A stretch of 48,963 bases of DNA, from contig CANKTL010000001.1 in assembly GCA_947486405.1 (NCBI GenBank), forward strand, positions 1-48,963, given 5' to 3'. The position numbers were made by a program, and so were the translations under genes. The notes beneath the pieces were generated by a model. The model worked only from the letters and a program-made list of their open reading frames with translations. It was not told the origin of the DNA and ran no database searches. Each line of letters opens with the position of its first letter. The first letter of the stretch is position 1. Positions 25,799 through 29,631 of this stretch are shown here, piece after piece. The DNA comes from a bacterium (GTDB lineage Bacteria; Margulisbacteria; Marinamargulisbacteria; CANKTL01).

Positions 25799-26707
25799 TT
25801 AAACAACCAGGGCGGGCAAGGTAATCGTAAAGGTAGTACCGCGACCCACCTCTGAGGTAAAAGTTAACTCTCCGTGATGATTTTTAATGATGCGCAGTGC
25901 CATCGATAATCCCATTCCCAAGTGCCCACCTTCTTTGGTTGAAAAAAACAGATCAAAAATCCGTTGTTGATGTTCCGGTGGAATACCTTTGCCAGTGTCA
26001 GTGATCGAAATGGTGTGTGTGCCGTTACCGGTGGTGGCGCTAACCGCAATTTGGCCACCCGCAGACGTCGCCGCGAGTCCATTGGAAATGATATTCAATA
26101 TCGCCCGATATAAATTCGTCGCGTCGCCCGTAACGCGCAACCCCGAATCAACCGACACCACCAGTCCCACCCCCGCGGCCACACACTGCGGCTTCACCAA
26201 CGCACAAATATCGCCGAGCAATTGCGTTAAATCGCTGTCTTTCACAACGCCCGATTCCGTATCCCCGTACTTCACCATCGTGTCTAAAATCTCACGCATA
26301 CGCAGGGCATTGCGCTGAATCGTGCCCATCATTTCTGTTATCAATTCGGGATCGGAGGCGTCTTCGGGTTCAAACCCATCCGCATGGGCAATCAACCCCG
26401 CCAATGGGTTTTTCAATTCGTGTGCGATGGCCATGGTAAATGAGGTGTGGGCTGCCAGCCGGGTAAGTCGCTCGGCCTCTTCCCGCGACTTCGCCAATTC
26501 CGCGGCTTGAACCTGGACCTGCTCGGATAATGTGGCATTGAAGCGTGCAATTTCGGTATTGGCGGCTTCCAACGAGGCTATTTTTTCATTCAATGAATCA
26601 TACAGGGAATTTTCGAGATGAGACCCGTGTTCGGTCACCATCTTATGTATAATTTTGAGGTCGTTATACTCCTCTTCGAGTGCGCGATAATCGTGTTCTA
26701 AGTTCAT
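25799..26707 (-). CDS. Cytoplasmic histidine kinase without recognisable sensor domain
   Basis: About 85 aa of N-terminal coiled coil. H-box FTMAIAHELKNPLAGL, N-box ILNIISNGLAAT, G1 ITDTGKGIP and G2 GGHLGMGLSMA. No TM or PAS/GAF motif recognised. Confidence 0.88.
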   Translation of the reverse strand: MNLEHDYRALEEEYNDLKIIHKMVTEHGSHLENSLYDSLNEKIASLEAANTEIARFNATLSEQVQVQAAELAKSREEAERLTRLAAHTSFTMAIAHELKNPLAGLIAHADGFEPEDASDPELITEMMGTIQRNALRMREILDTMVKYGDTESGVVKDSDLTQLLGDICALVKPQCVAAGVGLVVSVDSGLRVTGDATNLYRAILNIISNGLAATSAGGQIAVSATTGNGTHTISITDTGKGIPPEHQQRIFDLFFSTKEGGHLGMGLSMALRIIKNHHGELTFTSEVGRGTTFTITLPALVV

Positions 26708-27054
26708 GGCTCGTTTTTAATATGAACCTCGGTGCGGGGCCACAACAGTTTCCAGGCTGAAATTGTGTCTAAGTTCCACAGAGTATTAGACACTTCCCAC
26801 AGCACCACTTTGGTTTGTTTTTTCTTGGCCACTTTCAAAATTTCAGCCACAAACGAAGAGCCCGTGCTGTTGATATATTTGAGCCCGTTAAAATGAATGT
26901 CGTAATGATCCAAGGGCTTGGACATGACTTCGGAAATCTCGGCCAACATCGGTGCATATTCGTCAGACGTTCTTAATCGAAACTCGCCTGAGATGGCCGT
27001 TTCTTTTTCACTAATCGATACTTGGTACACTTTTCCGTTAATTTCCATGCTCAT
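26704..27054 (-). CDS. Small STAS / SiaC(DUF1987)-like regulator (tentatively slr1659-type)
   Basis: 116 aa. The pattern ISGEFRL...YAPMLAEI...HFNGLKYINSTGSSFVAEIL resembles SiaC/DUF1987 and STAS partner-switch proteins. 4-nt overlaps on both sides. Confidence 0.5.
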   Translation of the reverse strand: MSMEINGKVYQVSISEKETAISGEFRLRTSDEYAPMLAEISEVMSKPLDHYDIHFNGLKYINSTGSSFVAEILKVAKKKQTKVVLWEVSNTLWNLDTISAWKLLWPRTEVHIKNEP

Positions 27055-27635
27055 CCCGCCTTTATTTGAAGTTTCAGGGCAACACTGGTGCTGCCGTCTG
27101 AGTTAGGAACCAGGTCTATTTTAAGTTTGCTGCCATAGTCTTTAAGAATCATTAGCATCCCCAATTCTGATTTAGATGATGAGACCATACTGCTTAGAGT
27201 GATCTTTTCTTCAAACAACCGACTGAGCGACTTGGCCTGCAAATTACCAGACAGGCGCTCAAGATAAAATTGAAACGTTTCAGCCTGTTCGTGGGAACAA
27301 GTATTGGTGAGAAACAGTTCAAAATATGACGTGAAGCACTTGAACTCTAAATTAGAATACGTACCAGCCAAGCCATATTTCACCACATTTTCGAGCAATT
27401 CATTGATCACGACCGATGCCGTTGTTTCTAAAGAGACCGAGGCTGGATAGATGCCCTGAATTTTTTGAGCAAAAATATTGGCCAGCTCGCCCACTTTAAA
27501 CCAATTTTCGTCTAGATCTGAAATCGAAAGCTGATCTGAAAAGGAATCAACAAATGAATCCCCAGTTTGCCACTCGGTGGGAGGGAGATCGCAATGGTAG
27601 GGTGCTGAAATCGAACTCATTGTGTCATTAGCCAA
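27051..27635 (-). CDS. GHKL-ATPase-like regulator lacking obvious ATP-lid glycines (tentatively slr1658-type)
   Basis: N-box-like VINELLENVVKYG and a G2-like SELGMLMI, but I could find no DxGxG G1 box. The TTG start at 27635 has GGGG 10 nt upstream; the alternative is ATG at 27620. Confidence 0.5.
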   Translation of the reverse strand: MANDTMSSISAPYHCDLPPTEWQTGDSFVDSFSDQLSISDLDENWFKVGELANIFAQKIQGIYPASVSLETTASVVINELLENVVKYGLAGTYSNLEFKCFTSYFELFLTNTCSHEQAETFQFYLERLSGNLQAKSLSRLFEEKITLSSMVSSSKSELGMLMILKDYGSKLKIDLVPNSDGSTSVALKLQIKAG

Positions 27636-27691
27636 TTAGATGACGCCCCTTTCATAAGAATAAGACCGGCTCTTATTTGAATATACCAGAG

Positions 27692-27705
27692 CTGACAAGT
27701 GTCAG
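27692..27705. promoter_or_regulatory. Inverted repeat CTGACA-AG-TGTCAG in divergent intergenic region
   Basis: 6-2-6 palindrome read directly. It lies between the divergent starts at 27635 (-) and 27815 (+). Confidence 0.3.
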
Positions 27706-27814
27706 TATCGAAAATATAGGGGGATGTCTTGCGTATTTTGAAATTATTTTGGCTTAGATTCGACAATAATGTACAAATTTAATAAATAAAGCCTAGCTTT
27801 TAGGGGAGCACAAT

Positions 27815-28825
27815 ATGAATAAAAAGATTGTAGGGATGGTACAGTTGGGGGCATCAGGGCAACCTGAAAGTGCTGATGAAGTGGCACGTCGTTATTTTGC
27901 TCATATTAAAACGAGAACGGTTCAATTACCGGAGTCTTTGATTGCCGATATTTATGAATATCTGGAAAATTCCCCAGCAGAAGACCCGTTTATTCGAATC
28001 AACGAATCCGTTCGCCTCTGCTACACCCAATTTCAGGCTTGTTTACCGTACACCCTCGCCACTGACGATAAACATTATGCCTTAGTAATGGATAATGTCC
28101 GACACCTGCTGAGTCAGGATCACAATAACCCTCAGTATCGTCCGTTGTTGGCCGCTGCGGCCGGCCACGACTTGGAGCGGTGGTTTGATCACGATGGTAG
28201 CGGCGAATTTGGCACGGGGTATGGGGTGGCTAAATTGAATACGTTAGTTTCAAGGGATCATCCTCAGGCGAAAGAGTTGCAGACCGAATTAAAGCGCTTG
28301 GATGAATCGCTGCGAAAAGTTGAAATTCACCCTTGGGCATCGTTGCGGTTGATGGGTTTTTTGATGGAAAAATGCGGATTGGACGAAGGCTTTCAATTGA
28401 AAGTGAAAATATTAATTCGCTTCCATGACACGCCGCCCGAGGCTATCACACCGGAAAAAATAGAGGCCGAATTTCCAGGGCATGGGCTTGATATCTCTGA
28501 ACTAATGTCTGAAATTAAACTATTGGGCCAAGCAGATGCCATGGTGTTTTTCCAAACCCCCACGATCAAATTGTTTTTAGAAGAGCGTATCGATATAACG
28601 CCACGGCCAGAATTAGTGAGCCGATTGGCTAAGAATTTGAAAAAAATGGGGACTCAGGCTGAGACTGCGTATGAAGCTGGCCTTGCGTCAATTCAGGGCG
28701 AAGAGCCTACCTCGCGACACGACGATTCAGGGATTGATCTTATAGATCCTGAAGATACTCAGGGTAAGGCGTTTGAAATCGGTGCCATGCAAGCGTTACT
28801 GACAGAAGCGTGGAAACAAATATAA
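27815..28825 (+). CDS. Hypothetical 336-aa soluble protein
   Basis: SD AGGGGAG 6 nt upstream of the ATG. Scattered HD-like dipeptides (GHDLERWFDHDG, RFHDTPPE) but no confident family assignment. Confidence 0.7.
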   Translation: MNKKIVGMVQLGASGQPESADEVARRYFAHIKTRTVQLPESLIADIYEYLENSPAEDPFIRINESVRLCYTQFQACLPYTLATDDKHYALVMDNVRHLLSQDHNNPQYRPLLAAAAGHDLERWFDHDGSGEFGTGYGVAKLNTLVSRDHPQAKELQTELKRLDESLRKVEIHPWASLRLMGFLMEKCGLDEGFQLKVKILIRFHDTPPEAITPEKIEAEFPGHGLDISELMSEIKLLGQADAMVFFQTPTIKLFLEERIDITPRPELVSRLAKNLKKMGTQAETAYEAGLASIQGEEPTSRHDDSGIDLIDPEDTQGKAFEIGAMQALLTEAWKQI

Positions 28826-28890: not shown

Positions 28891-29631
28891 TTACTGTAAC
28901 TTAACTTCCAAAATAGCAGATTGGATTTTGCCAATTAGCTGTTTAGAGGTGCTGTTGAAATCGTCAGCTGGGAATGCAGGAAGTCCGCCATCAGCTGAGC
29001 GTTTGGCTGTGCTAAGTGCGAAAAATTCTTTTTCACCCATTTTGCCTTCTTTGTCGCCAATAGTTACTTTCGTTTTGATACCCAATTGATAGGTTTTGCT
29101 TAATCCCATTAAGCCTTCTTCTTTCACATACCCAATAGTGGTGTGAAGAACAACAACGCAGTCTGCACCTGAATCAGAGGTCAATGTTTTCGCAATTGAT
29201 CCTTGGCCCAAATCAGCGCTTGGAAGTGGGTCAAATTTTACAACCGTGATACGTGCTTTAGACAATAGGTCAGGGAATTTCGCATTCAAATTTTCTTTGA
29301 ATCGATCATAGCTTTCTTGAGTAGCGGCTTCATTTTTTTGACGCGCAGCTGCAACACCTTGGGCATTTTCAACGGCTTTGCCAGAGAACAATCCACCCAA
29401 TACGTTAGCTGCTTCGCCGGCACCAATACCGTCTCCGCCCACCGCTGAGCTACCTAATACGTTTCCGCCAGAGTCGAATTGAACCAATCCATCCTCATAT
29501 TCATACGCTACTACAGCGGCTGATTTTGCATTTTTAACTCGGTCCCAAGGATTACATCCGGCAATACCCACCGCAACAAGTGCGAGTAAACCGAAGGTCC
29601 CCATTTTCTTAAGTGCGTTACTAGTCGTCAT
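28891..29631 (-). CDS. Hypothetical lipoprotein
   Basis: Signal peptide with lipobox GIAGC, a Gly-rich segment, and no motif I recognise. Confidence 0.7.
   Translation of the reverse strand: MTTSNALKKMGTFGLLALVAVGIAGCNPWDRVKNAKSAAVVAYEYEDGLVQFDSGGNVLGSSAVGGDGIGAGEAANVLGGLFSGKAVENAQGVAAARQKNEAATQESYDRFKENLNAKFPDLLSKARITVVKFDPLPSADLGQGSIAKTLTSDSGADCVVVLHTTIGYVKEEGLMGLSKTYQLGIKTKVTIGDKEGKMGEKEFFALSTAKRSADGGLPAFPADDFNSTSKQLIGKIQSAILEVKLQ

What the first reader, a model, noticed from the sequence alone, without database searches (positions are those of the whole stretch)
25799..27635. Three-gene signalling cassette: GHKL-like pseudo-kinase + STAS/SiaC-like protein + sensor-less histidine kinase, with no response regulator
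Seen:
- Three translationally coupled minus-strand genes with 4-nt overlaps at 27051-27054 and 26704-26707.
- Gene 1 has an N-box-like INELLENVVKYG and a G2-like SELGMLMI, but no G1 DxGxG that I can find.
- Gene 2 (116 aa) has the ISGEF...YINSTGSSFVAEIL pattern of STAS/DUF1987 (SiaC) partner-switch proteins.
- Gene 3 is a complete HisKA+HATPase kinase whose only N-terminal feature is a coiled coil.
- No receiver-domain gene is present in the cassette.

Established: partner-switching modules (RsbW/RsbV, SiaB/SiaC) normally control sigma factors or diguanylate cyclases. From memory, these two small proteins resemble the functionally uncharacterised slr1658/slr1659 families.

Inference: a partner-switch pair may replace the missing sensor domain and gate a two-component kinase. 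That wiring has not been characterised experimentally, to my knowledge.
Basis: partly seen in the sequence, partly recalled or inferred. Interest (0 to 1): 0.6.

Follow-up and report, generated by a model that had tools for sequence, protein, structure and literature searches.

The report
Partner-switch pair wired to histidine kinase
Two small proteins of the kind that usually switch a sigma factor or a c-di-GMP cyclase on and off are here joined in one operon to a sensor-less histidine kinase, and the kinase's first 40 residues carry a short helical motif shared by all the alternative output enzymes of such cassettes, so the pair most likely serves as the kinase's missing sensor.

Summary
The three minus-strand genes are real and tightly coupled.

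- **Gene 1 (194 aa):** a distant slr1658-superfamily protein with an anti-sigma-kinase (GHKL) fold.
- **Gene 2 (116 aa):** a distant slr1659-superfamily protein with a SiaC/STAS fold. It keeps the Ser of the phospho-switch motif (N62-S63-T64-G65).
- **Gene 3 (302 aa):** a complete HisKA histidine kinase.

New here: residues 9-37 of the kinase are not just coiled coil. They carry a motif (E-x-x-D-L-K-h-h...E-H-G-x-x-h-E-N-x-L) that sits at the N-terminus of diguanylate cyclases, nucleotide cyclases, PP2C phosphatases and histidine kinases encoded beside slr1658/slr1659 pairs in many phyla.

- The order pair then motif-kinase recurs in at least five other lineages.
- A PP2C phosphatase is the usual third partner. 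In the closest relative it lies next to the triad. In this genome its orthologue is on another contig.
- "Pseudo-kinase" is probably wrong. Gene 1 has the fully conserved signature (N-box Asn/Lys, an Asn where the G1 Asp should be, and SxLG), and that signature co-varies with a phosphorylatable Ser in the partner.

Best reading: a SiaABC-like partner switch whose output is a two-component kinase. Binding and phosphorylation are inferred, not shown. This is a new variant of a known kind.

The parts
27051..27635 (-). Gene 1: slr1658-superfamily GHKL protein, class I; putative Ser kinase or switch protein acting on gene 2
   Evidence: NCBIfam NF047703 E 7e-18, 64.7 bits (cut-off 100); SiaB_fam_kinase E 4e-4. 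Pfam DUF6272 E 2.5e-3. AF2 model pLDDT 87; best PDB folds are SpoIIAB, UsfX and RsbW. Signature N78-E79-E82-N83-K86...N111...S156-x-L-G159.
26704..27054 (-). Gene 2: slr1659-superfamily SiaC/STAS-like phospho-switch protein; putative phospho-acceptor Ser63 (codon 26868-26866)
   Evidence: NF047705 E 7.7e-14, 51.9 bits (cut-off 100). Pfam SiaC E 1e-3, STAS E 7e-3. Profile hits TM1442 anti-sigma antagonist at E 1.5e-4, with NSsG aligned to DSaG. AF2 pLDDT 92; TM 0.73 to SiaC against about 0.55 to SpoIIAA. N-S-[SAT]-G in 89 of 89 short family members.
25799..26707 (-). Gene 3: cytoplasmic HisKA-type histidine kinase with no sensor domain; phospho-His96 (codon 26422-26420)
   Evidence: HisKA residues 88-151 and HATPase_c residues 194-299 above Pfam thresholds. 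H-box AHELKNPL, N box, DTGKG, FSTK and GMGLS read from the sequence.
26597..26683 (-). N-terminal stalk motif of the kinase (residues 9-37, ALEEEYNDLKIIHKMVTEHGSHLENSLYD); proposed docking site for the partner-switch proteins
   Evidence: Shared with kinases beside slr1658/9 pairs in class relatives. In this genome's ORFs the motif HMM hits only gene 3 (E 9e-27). Found on GGDEF, cyclase, PP2C and HK neighbours of cassettes. 313 cluster representatives among 1.84 billion proteins.
27636..27814 (.). 179-nt divergent intergenic region upstream of gene 1; contains the palindrome CTGACA-CT-TGTCAG (27692-27705) and weak sigma-70-like hexamers
   Evidence: Sequence. The promoter scan gives no more matches than shuffled sequence, so this is not evidence of function.

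Best explanation
The cassette is a SiaABC-type partner-switching module whose output enzyme is a histidine kinase rather than a diguanylate cyclase or a sigma factor.

Proposed mechanism:
1. Gene 2 (SiaC/STAS fold) is the switch. When unphosphorylated it binds the N-terminal stalk motif (residues 9-37) of the dimeric kinase.
2. Through the coiled coil that runs into the DHp helix, this binding changes the kinase's balance between autokinase and phosphatase activity.
3. Gene 1, an atypical GHKL Ser kinase, binds gene 2 and phosphorylates it on Ser63, which withdraws gene 2 from the kinase.
4. A membrane-anchored PP2C phosphatase reverses this in response to the real stimulus. It is adjacent in the closest relative and encoded at contig C42:1353-2735 in this genome.
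5. The kinase then signals to a response regulator encoded elsewhere.

Shown: folds, family relationships, conserved residues, gene order, recurrence of the triad, and sharing of the motif among alternative outputs.

Inferred: every binding and phosphorylation step, the sign of regulation, and the identity of the regulator.
For: Family and fold:
- Assignments for genes 1 and 2.
- Gene 2's Y60-I-N62-S63-T64 matches SiaC's Y65-L-N67-T68-S69. There T68 is the phospho-site, and N67/T68/S69 contact the SiaD stalk (PMC8457831, PMC7647112).

The phosphatase partner:
- PP2C lies near the pair in 9 of 20 class-relative loci and in almost all of 79 loci across phyla.
- It is adjacent in the 62%-identical relative L033.
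- Its orthologue in this genome matches at E 3e-134.

The motif:
- It is found on the N-terminus of neighbours with GGDEF, class III cyclase, PP2C or HK domains.
- Among 102 motif proteins of at least 200 aa, 44 have GGDEF, 27 HATPase_c and 13 a cyclase domain.
- It is specific: only gene 3 in this genome.
- Genome-level co-occurrence with slr1658 in class relatives is 11/1/9/20, Fisher p = 5e-4.

Recurrence of the triad:
- Co-directional with the pair: L033/L034, L078, L118, L119, L126, L127; also L120, where the kinase precedes the pair.
- In three sensor-less motif-kinases the motif lies 35, 35 and 42 residues before the phospho-His, which is 0 mod 7.

Gene 1 as an active kinase:
- The class I signature co-varies with a phosphorylatable Ser in the partner.
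Against: - No binding or phosphorylation data exist for any member of this family.
- The motif profile does not detect the SiaD stalk or anything else in the PDB, so the parallel with SiaC-SiaD is by analogy only.
- In 4 of 11 class relatives that have both, the motif-kinase is on a different contig from the pair, and in one more it lies 8 kb away.
- Two PAS-containing motif-kinases had no pair within the flanks seen.
- In L125, slr1658 is followed directly by a motif-GGDEF with no slr1659 between them. This would fit the GHKL protein being the binder.
- The motif is commonest on small PP2Cs (23 of 33 loci), where it might recruit rather than regulate.
- Gene 1 lacks the GHKL G1 Asp, which is otherwise needed for adenine binding.
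- In gene 3 the distance from motif to His is 80 (3 mod 7), so no fixed register applies to all.
- The PP2C is not linked in this genome, and no cognate regulator was identified.
Confidence: 0.55

Rival explanations
1. Same partner switch gating the kinase, but wired like RsbT-RsbU. Gene 1, the GHKL protein, docks on the kinase's N-terminal motif and activates or inhibits it. Gene 2 sequesters gene 1 until it is phosphorylated.
For: In the RsbRST systems, the GHKL switch kinase RsbT binds an N-terminal module (RsbU_N) that is shared by different downstream outputs (PMC9237108, PMC12143880 abstract). Gene 1's closest folds are the anti-sigma kinases that bind their targets directly. In L125 an slr1658 gene directly precedes a motif-GGDEF with no slr1659 between. 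Three motif proteins carry a fused DUF6272.
Against: Gene 2 is closer in fold to SiaC (TM 0.73) than to RsbS or SpoIIAA, and keeps the N-S/T-S/T surface that SiaC uses to grip the SiaD stalk (PMC8457831). In SiaABCD, two-hybrid assays found SiaB did not bind SiaD (PMC7278518). Repeated motifs (2-6 copies) on GGDEF outputs resemble SiaD's two SiaC-binding motifs.
Confidence: 0.25
2. The kinase is an independent cytoplasmic kinase that merely shares an operon. The pair controls some other target, and the N-terminal motif is a lineage-specific variant of a dimerising signalling helix with no partner-binding role.
For: The S-helix is a known roughly 40-residue coiled-coil element found N-terminal to the same set of output domains: HK, cyclase, PP2C and GGDEF (PMC1592074). 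The first half of the motif gives weak generic coiled-coil matches in the PDB. Some motif-kinases are not linked to a pair.
Against: The motif lacks the S-helix ERT signature. It is N-terminal rather than between two domains. Only one of the roughly seven kinase ORFs or fragments in this genome has it. It co-occurs with slr1658 at genome level (p = 5e-4). It lies beside the pair in 6 of 8 kinase contexts examined. Translational coupling by a 4-nt overlap is repeated in L119.
Confidence: 0.12
3. Gene 1 is a true pseudo-kinase. The module works by stoichiometric sequestration alone, without phosphorylation of gene 2.
For: None of 155 slr1658-superfamily members has the G1 Asp or DxGxG.
Against: N83, K86, N111 and S-G-L-G are near-invariant in class I across phyla. 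They are lost together in class II, whose partners have also lost the Ser (N-N-x-A). A PP2C phosphatase is almost always present, which makes sense only if something is phosphorylated. SiaB, a weak relative, is an experimentally active 'unusual' kinase (PMC7278518).
Confidence: 0.08

Closest known systems
SiaABCD of Pseudomonas aeruginosa (PP2C SiaA, kinase SiaB, DUF1987 protein SiaC, diguanylate cyclase SiaD)
   Same: A PP2C, a small atypical kinase and a SiaC-fold phospho-switch protein with N-T/S-S at the switch site. The output enzyme is regulated through repeated motifs on an N-terminal helical stalk. Cyanobacterial slr1658/9 cassettes carry a SiaD-like GGDEF (NF038266 E 4e-45).
   Different: The output here is a HisKA histidine kinase. 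Genes 1 and 2 fall far below the SiaB and SiaC model cut-offs. The stalk motif is not detectably similar to SiaD's. The phospho-acceptor is Ser, not Thr. The PP2C is unlinked in this genome.
Slr1658/Slr1659 operon of Synechocystis sp. PCC 6803
   Same: Same superfamilies by NCBIfam. The Synechocystis mutant has a strong regulatory phenotype (pgr5 up about 1000-fold) with no known signalling chain or response regulator (PMC7555055, PMC6525291).
   Different: The window proteins are distant (64.7 and 51.9 bits against a cut-off of 100; slr1658_cyano 44.8 against 200). I could not inspect the Synechocystis operon's own output gene.
RsbRST(X) stressosome modules with variable outputs carrying RsbU_N (including Vibrio kinase D1)
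   Same: A STAS plus GHKL switch module encoded upstream of alternative outputs (PP2C, GGDEF, two-component proteins) that share an N-terminal docking module. Gating of a kinase has been proposed for these (PMC9237108).
   Different: Different protein families. There is no RsbR/RsbS scaffold here. The docking module is a four-helix RsbU_N domain rather than a roughly 30-residue helical motif. In Vibrio no RsbT-D1 interaction could be shown.
Signalling helix (S-helix; Anantharaman, Balaji and Aravind 2006)
   Same: A roughly 40-residue parallel coiled-coil element preceding HK, cyclase, PP2C and GGDEF domains (PMC1592074).
   Different: The S-helix sits between a sensor and an output domain and has an ERT signature. 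The motif here is at the extreme N-terminus, often repeated, and has the signature D-L...E-H-G...E-x-x-L.
SpoIIAB/SpoIIAA and RsbW/RsbV anti-sigma partner switches
   Same: Best fold matches for gene 1. Gene 2 has the STAS fold, with Ser at the DSSG-equivalent position.
   Different: No sigma factor nearby. Gene 1 lacks the G1 box and has an extra N-terminal beta-region of about 45 residues. The target is a kinase.

Membership tests
slr1658 superfamily (NCBIfam NF047703; Pfam DUF6272) | HMM score above the curated cut-off | tested here: not met
   64.7 bits against a cut-off of 100, E 7e-18. DUF6272 17.9 bits against 26.6. A significant but distant match.
slr1658 superfamily (NCBIfam NF047703; Pfam DUF6272) | Family signature W...N-E-x-x-E-N-x-x-K...N...S-x-L-G, and adjacency to an slr1659-type gene | tested here: met
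   W45, N78, E79, E82, N83, K86, N111, S156 and G159 are present. Class I pattern in 102 of 155 members. Gene 2 is adjacent.
slr1659 superfamily (NCBIfam NF047705) | HMM score above the curated cut-off | tested here: not met
   51.9 bits against 100, E 7.7e-14.
slr1659 superfamily (NCBIfam NF047705) | Invariant G23, R26, N62-S63-x-G65 and W93 | tested here: met
   All present. N-S-[SAT]-G in 89 of 89 short members.
SiaC / DUF1987 (Pfam PF09345) | Pfam gathering score | tested here: not met
   19.2 bits against 24.5.
SiaC / DUF1987 (Pfam PF09345) | SiaC fold: extra N-terminal strands plus three helices, with the switch residue at the start of helix 2 | tested here: met
   AF2 model pLDDT 92. 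TM 0.69-0.73 and rmsd 2.7-3.1 to 6k4f, 6kkp and 7e6g.
SiaB family kinase (NCBIfam NF038262) | HMM score above cut-off | tested here: not met
   19.9 bits against 85, covering the C-terminal half only. No SiaB chain among the top 50 fold matches.
GHKL ATPase/kinase (Bergerat fold) | N box with Mg-binding Asn | tested here: met
   E79-L-L-E82-N83-V-V-K86. Fold matches SpoIIAB, RsbW and UsfX.
GHKL ATPase/kinase (Bergerat fold) | G1 box DxGxG with adenine-binding Asp | tested here: not met
   Asn111 followed directly by a helix. No Asp at this column in any of 155 members.
GHKL ATPase/kinase (Bergerat fold) | ATP binding and phosphotransfer | not testable with these tools
   Only indirect evidence: co-variation of the class I signature with the partner's Ser.
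HisKA-type two-component histidine kinase | HisKA and HATPase_c above threshold; H, N, G1, F and G2 boxes | tested here: met
   38.9 bits (cut-off 26.9) and 92.1 bits (cut-off 26.4). AHELKNPL, NIISNG, DTGKG, FFSTK and GMGLS.
HisKA-type two-component histidine kinase | Cognate response regulator | tested here: inconclusive
   None in the window or within 8 kb. Several orphan receiver proteins lie elsewhere in this 67%-complete genome.
Partner-switching system | PP2C phosphatase, switch kinase and STAS-type antagonist | tested here: met
   Kinase-like and STAS-like genes are in the cassette. The PP2C is adjacent in relative L033, and its orthologue is at C42:1353-2735 in this genome (E 3e-134).
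Partner-switching system | Phosphorylation-dependent exchange of binding partners | not testable with these tools
   No multimer modelling or biochemistry was available.

The most novel reading that the evidence does not exclude
A roughly 30-residue N-terminal stalk motif (E-x-x-D-L-x-h-h...E-H-G-x-x-h-E-x-x-L) is a portable docking module. Through it, one SiaBC-like pair (slr1658/slr1659) can plug into four kinds of output enzyme. When the output is a histidine kinase, this amounts to an undescribed input route into two-component signalling: a phospho-Ser switch protein takes the place of a sensor domain.
Probability: 0.55. Interest if true: 0.75.

Novelty: new variant of a known kind. Interest (0 to 1): 0.64.

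Why it matters
- Many histidine kinases have no recognisable sensor domain, and how they receive signals is a standing question. This cassette gives a concrete, testable answer for one class: a Ser-phosphorylated SiaC-like adaptor, set by a membrane PP2C and a small GHKL kinase, binds a defined N-terminal motif.
- The same motif marks GGDEF, cyclase and PP2C outputs. It can therefore be used to predict the targets of slr1658/slr1659 modules across Cyanobacteria, Alphaproteobacteria, Myxococcota and others.
- It also offers a route into the unexplained Synechocystis slr1658 phenotype (pgr5 derepressed about 1000-fold, with no known signalling chain).

Tried and rejected
- **PDB sequence search with the slr1658 profile:** no hits, even at E 10.
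- **Motif profile against the PDB:** only weak generic coiled-coil matches and no SiaD, so homology of the motif to the SiaD stalk is not claimed.
- **Word-based search with kinase residues 1-60:** found only the kinase itself and the L033 orthologue. The exhaustive profile search was needed.
- **The divergent 336-aa ORF (27815-28825) as a replacement phosphatase:**
  - It has no Pfam, NCBIfam or PDB match.
  - It has only two relatives.
  - In the related organism its homologue sits in a GerE-p336-p246-methyltransferase-ABC block without the cassette.
  - It is therefore a neighbour by rearrangement.
- **GerE protein of that block as the missing regulator:** it is a membrane-anchored LuxR-type protein with no receiver domain and no homologue in this genome.
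- **REC-PP2C (RsbY/HsbR-like) link from the kinase to the switch:** none found in this genome. The 374-aa receiver protein on C2 carries a KaiC/RecA-like ATPase domain, judged by reading its sequence.
- **Ordinary anti-sigma reading:** no sigma factor within 8 kb.
- **Fixed heptad register between motif and phospho-His:** holds for three kinases (35, 35, 42) but not for gene 3 (80).
- **Promoter and terminator scan:** no more matches than in shuffled sequence.
- **Multimer structure prediction:** not available.
Full report
**1. Observation**

The window holds three consecutive minus-strand ORFs at exactly the stated coordinates.
- Gene 1: 27635-27051, 194 aa, TTG start.
- Gene 2: 27054-26704, 116 aa.
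- Gene 3: 26707-25799, 302 aa.

The gene 2/gene 3 junction is an ATGA overlap. The gene 1/gene 2 overlap exists only if the first ATG is used. Public gene calls on identical contigs start gene 2 two codons later (114 aa) and gene 1 at ATG 27620 (189 aa). Either way the genes are translationally coupled.

Gene 3 passes Pfam thresholds for HisKA (residues 88-151) and HATPase_c (residues 194-299). No receiver domain lies on this contig. Precomputed Pfam hits show neither a receiver nor a sigma factor within 8 kb on either side.

The genome is a 0.98-Mb, 67%-complete assembly. Its class-level relatives include a contig labelled Candidatus Marinamargulisbacteria (L109 = G023:C223).

**2. The two small proteins**

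Gene 1:
- It matches NCBIfam slr1658_superfam at E 7e-18 and 64.7 bits, below the curated cut-off of 100. SiaB_fam_kinase is a weak second hit.
- An AlphaFold2 model built on 27 relatives has pLDDT 87.
- Its best structural matches are the anti-sigma Ser kinases SpoIIAB, UsfX and RsbW.

Gene 2:
- It matches slr1659_superfam at E 7.7e-14 and 51.9 bits, against the same cut-off of 100.
- A profile of its relatives finds the anti-sigma antagonist TM1442 at E 1.5e-4. The family's invariant N-S-S-G aligns with the D-S-x-G phospho-site.
- Its model has pLDDT 92 and superposes best on SiaC (TM 0.69-0.73, rmsd about 3 Å). The fit to SpoIIAA or RsbV is poorer (TM about 0.55).
- Its Y60-I-N62-S63-T64 corresponds to SiaC's Y65-L-N67-T68-S69. 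In SiaC, T68 is phosphorylated by SiaB, and N67/T68/S69 grip the SiaD stalk (PMC7647112, PMC8457831).

**3. Is gene 1 a pseudo-kinase?**

Gene 1 indeed has no DxGxG. None of 155 non-identical superfamily members has an Asp at that column. However, the family splits cleanly into two classes.
- **Class I (102 members, gene 1 included):** keeps N78-E79-E82-N83-K86, N111 and S-G/x-L-G almost without exception, from Alphaproteobacteria to Cyanobacteria.
- **Class II (52 members):** has lost N83, N111 and the S-x-L-G together. It is always the upstream paralogue, next to a STAS-methyltransferase fusion.

The partners co-vary with these classes. All 89 short slr1659 proteins have N-S-[SAT]-G. In 19 of the 21 long fusion proteins the Ser has become Asn (N-N-x-A).

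Loss of the putative catalytic residues therefore goes with loss of the acceptor Ser. This is what one expects if class I proteins are active Ser kinases with an unusual nucleotide pocket. SiaB, for comparison, is described as an "unusual" but active kinase (PMC7278518). This is inference, and it makes "pseudo-kinase" the less likely reading.

**4. The conserved third partner is a PP2C phosphatase**

- In 79 loci from named genomes, almost every slr1658/slr1659 pair lies beside a SpoIIE-type PP2C. The commonest cassette is slr1658(II) / STAS-methyltransferase / roughly 800-aa Cache-HAMP-PP2C / slr1658(I) / slr1659.
- Nine of 20 class-relative loci have a PP2C nearby.
- The only close relative of gene 1 in 5.8 billion proteins is 62% identical and lies on contig L033. 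L033 carries the same triad (193, 114 and 302 aa) with the same downstream YgjP, DAO and cytochrome-oxidase genes. A 457-aa membrane PP2C is divergently adjacent.
- This genome has that PP2C's orthologue on another contig, C42:1353-2735 (E 3e-134, full length).
- In the window, the PP2C's place is taken by an orphan 336-aa ORF. It came there by rearrangement. Its homologue in the relative's sample sits in the same p336 / p246 / methyltransferase / ABC block, but without the cassette.

**5. The kinase's N-terminus carries a cassette-specific motif**

Five class relatives have a long PAS-kinase beside their slr1658/9 pair. Aligning gene 3 with these showed a shared segment: gene 3 residues 9-37 (ALEEEYNDLKIIHKMVTEHGSHLENSLYD) against, for example, SIEQELNDLKVILGTTIEHSTEIENDLSN.

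An HMM of this segment was specific.
- It hit only gene 3 among this genome's 2,330 ORFs.
- In the 79 loci it hit only cassette neighbours, in 33 loci.

Those neighbours have different catalytic domains:
- small PP2Cs: 23
- class III nucleotide cyclases: 4
- GGDEF cyclases: 3
- histidine kinases: 3

Two of the GGDEF proteins, both cyanobacterial, carry three motif copies and match the SiaD model at E 4e-45 and 9e-43.

A 44-column profile of 21 instances has D16, H27 and L35 invariant, and L17 and E32 nearly so. Searched exhaustively against 1.84 billion representatives, it found 313 proteins at E ≤ 1e-3. The motif is almost always near the N-terminus, in one to six copies.

Of the 102 best hits of at least 200 aa:
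- 44 have GGDEF.
- 27 have HATPase_c, and 25 of them also HisKA.
- 13 have a cyclase domain.
- 3 have a fused DUF6272.

At genome level in the class, motif and slr1658 co-occur: 11 genomes with both, 1 with the motif only, 9 with slr1658 only, 20 with neither. Fisher p = 5e-4.

**6. The triad recurs**

I looked up the contexts of seven motif-kinases.
- **L118:** PP2C-containing giant protein, then slr1658, slr1659 and a 333-aa sensor-less motif-kinase.
- **L119:** slr1658, slr1659, then motif-kinase-REC with a 4-nt overlap.
- **L120:** motif-kinase-REC-Hpt, then slr1658, slr1659 and PP2C.
- **L126:** slr1658, slr1659, then motif-PAS-kinase-REC.
- **L127:** PP2C, slr1658, slr1659, motif-kinase-REC, then REC-Ser/Thr kinase.

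L078 has PP2C, slr1659, slr1658 and then the kinase.

Two PAS-kinases showed no pair within the flanks available.

In three sensor-less kinases, the motif's Asp lies 35, 35 and 42 residues before the phospho-His. The motif therefore sits on the helix that becomes DHp helix 1, in a constant heptad phase. In gene 3 a longer coiled coil intervenes, and the distance is 80.

**7. Mechanism**

The motif occupies the place where these enzymes normally carry a sensor domain. It is shared by alternative outputs of one kind of cassette. The same logic is known in two systems.
- SiaC binds repeated motifs on SiaD's stalk and activates it. Phosphorylation of T68 blocks binding (PMC8457831).
- RsbT binds the RsbU_N module that is shared by the outputs of RsbRST systems (PMC9237108).

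I therefore favour the following model.
1. Unphosphorylated gene 2 binds the kinase's stalk motif and sets its activity.
2. Gene 1 phosphorylates S63 and sequesters gene 2.
3. The membrane PP2C resets the switch in response to the stimulus.

The main rival keeps the same wiring but makes gene 1 the protein that docks on the kinase. I give about 0.8 to "the pair gates the kinase" in either form, and 0.55 to the SiaC-like version.

The motif profile finds nothing in the PDB, SiaD included. The parallel is therefore analogy, not demonstrated homology.

The motif differs from the S-helix in three ways. It lacks the ERT signature, it is not placed between two domains, and it is not generic among kinases (PMC1592074).

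**8. What is known, and novelty**

- NCBIfam and Pfam (DUF6272) catalogue the two families.
- The library search for DUF6272, DUF1987 and the two superfamily names returned only the SiaC-SiaD structure paper, which holds DUF1987.
- The Synechocystis slr1658 work reports a phenotype, and states that no signalling chain or response regulator is known (PMC6525291, PMC7555055).
- The SiaC authors proposed that DUF1987 proteins modulate adjacent proteins in general (PMC8457831).
- Partner switches that regulate enzymes are established: SiaD, HsbD, BgrR, and a cyanobacterial EPS enzyme (bioRxiv 10.64898/2026.04.08.717354).
- In the searchable literature I found no description of a SiaBC-like pair with a histidine-kinase output, nor of the shared N-terminal motif.

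This is a new variant of a known kind, not a new category.

**9. Limits**

- The genome is incomplete, so the cognate response regulator could not be sought properly.
- The Synechocystis operon itself was not inspected.

Noticed in passing
window 27815-28825 (+) and 28891-29631 (-): Two orphan proteins (336 and 246 aa) with no Pfam, NCBIfam or PDB match. Both travel together as a block with the RlmK-like methyltransferase and ABC genes. In a related organism the same block is preceded by a membrane-anchored GerE/LuxR protein instead of the signalling cassette.
   Followed up: partly
own genome contig C42:4909-7186: A second, classical partner-switch unit: a 653-aa protein that reads as a PP2C fused to an RsbW-like kinase behind a membrane/HAMP-like N-terminus (read from the sequence, not scanned against families), followed by a 110-aa SpoIIAA-like STAS protein. 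It lies about 2 kb downstream of the 460-aa membrane PP2C that is the orthologue of the cassette-linked phosphatase.
   Followed up: partly
L043, L052, L084-L088 and about 40 other alphaproteobacterial loci (for example L086:1710-6721): A conserved five-gene cassette: degenerate slr1658 (class II), a STAS domain fused to a SAM methyltransferase with the switch Ser replaced by Asn, an roughly 800-aa Cache-HAMP-PP2C, class I slr1658 and slr1659. A divergent roughly 310-aa motif-PP2C accompanies it. The role of the methyltransferase fusion is unexplained.
   Followed up: partly
L118:1-4711: A 1,767-aa protein combining Ser/Thr protein kinase, AAA_16, GAF and SpoIIE/PP2C domains, directly upstream of an slr1658 / slr1659 / motif-kinase triad.
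   Followed up: no
L127:4438-6120: A receiver domain fused to a eukaryotic-type Ser/Thr kinase lies directly downstream of a motif-kinase-REC triad. It is a possible downstream partner in that lineage.
   Followed up: no
L125:463-3138: An slr1658 gene directly followed by a GGDEF protein with five or six motif copies, with no slr1659 between them. The contig is short. If real, this favours direct binding by the GHKL protein.
   Followed up: no
own genome contig C2:578-1702: A 374-aa protein with an N-terminal receiver domain and a KaiC/RecA-like P-loop ATPase C-terminal half (read from the sequence).
   Followed up: no
window 27692-27705: The perfect palindrome CTGACA-CT-TGTCAG in the divergent intergenic region between gene 1 and the 336-aa ORF.
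   Followed up: no
class relatives, for example L019:6080-7578, L024:6732-8197, L012:65-1541: Many relatives have slr1658 / slr1659 / slr1658 triplets in which both kinase-like paralogues keep the class I signature. The window's kinase occupies the position of the second paralogue.
   Followed up: partly
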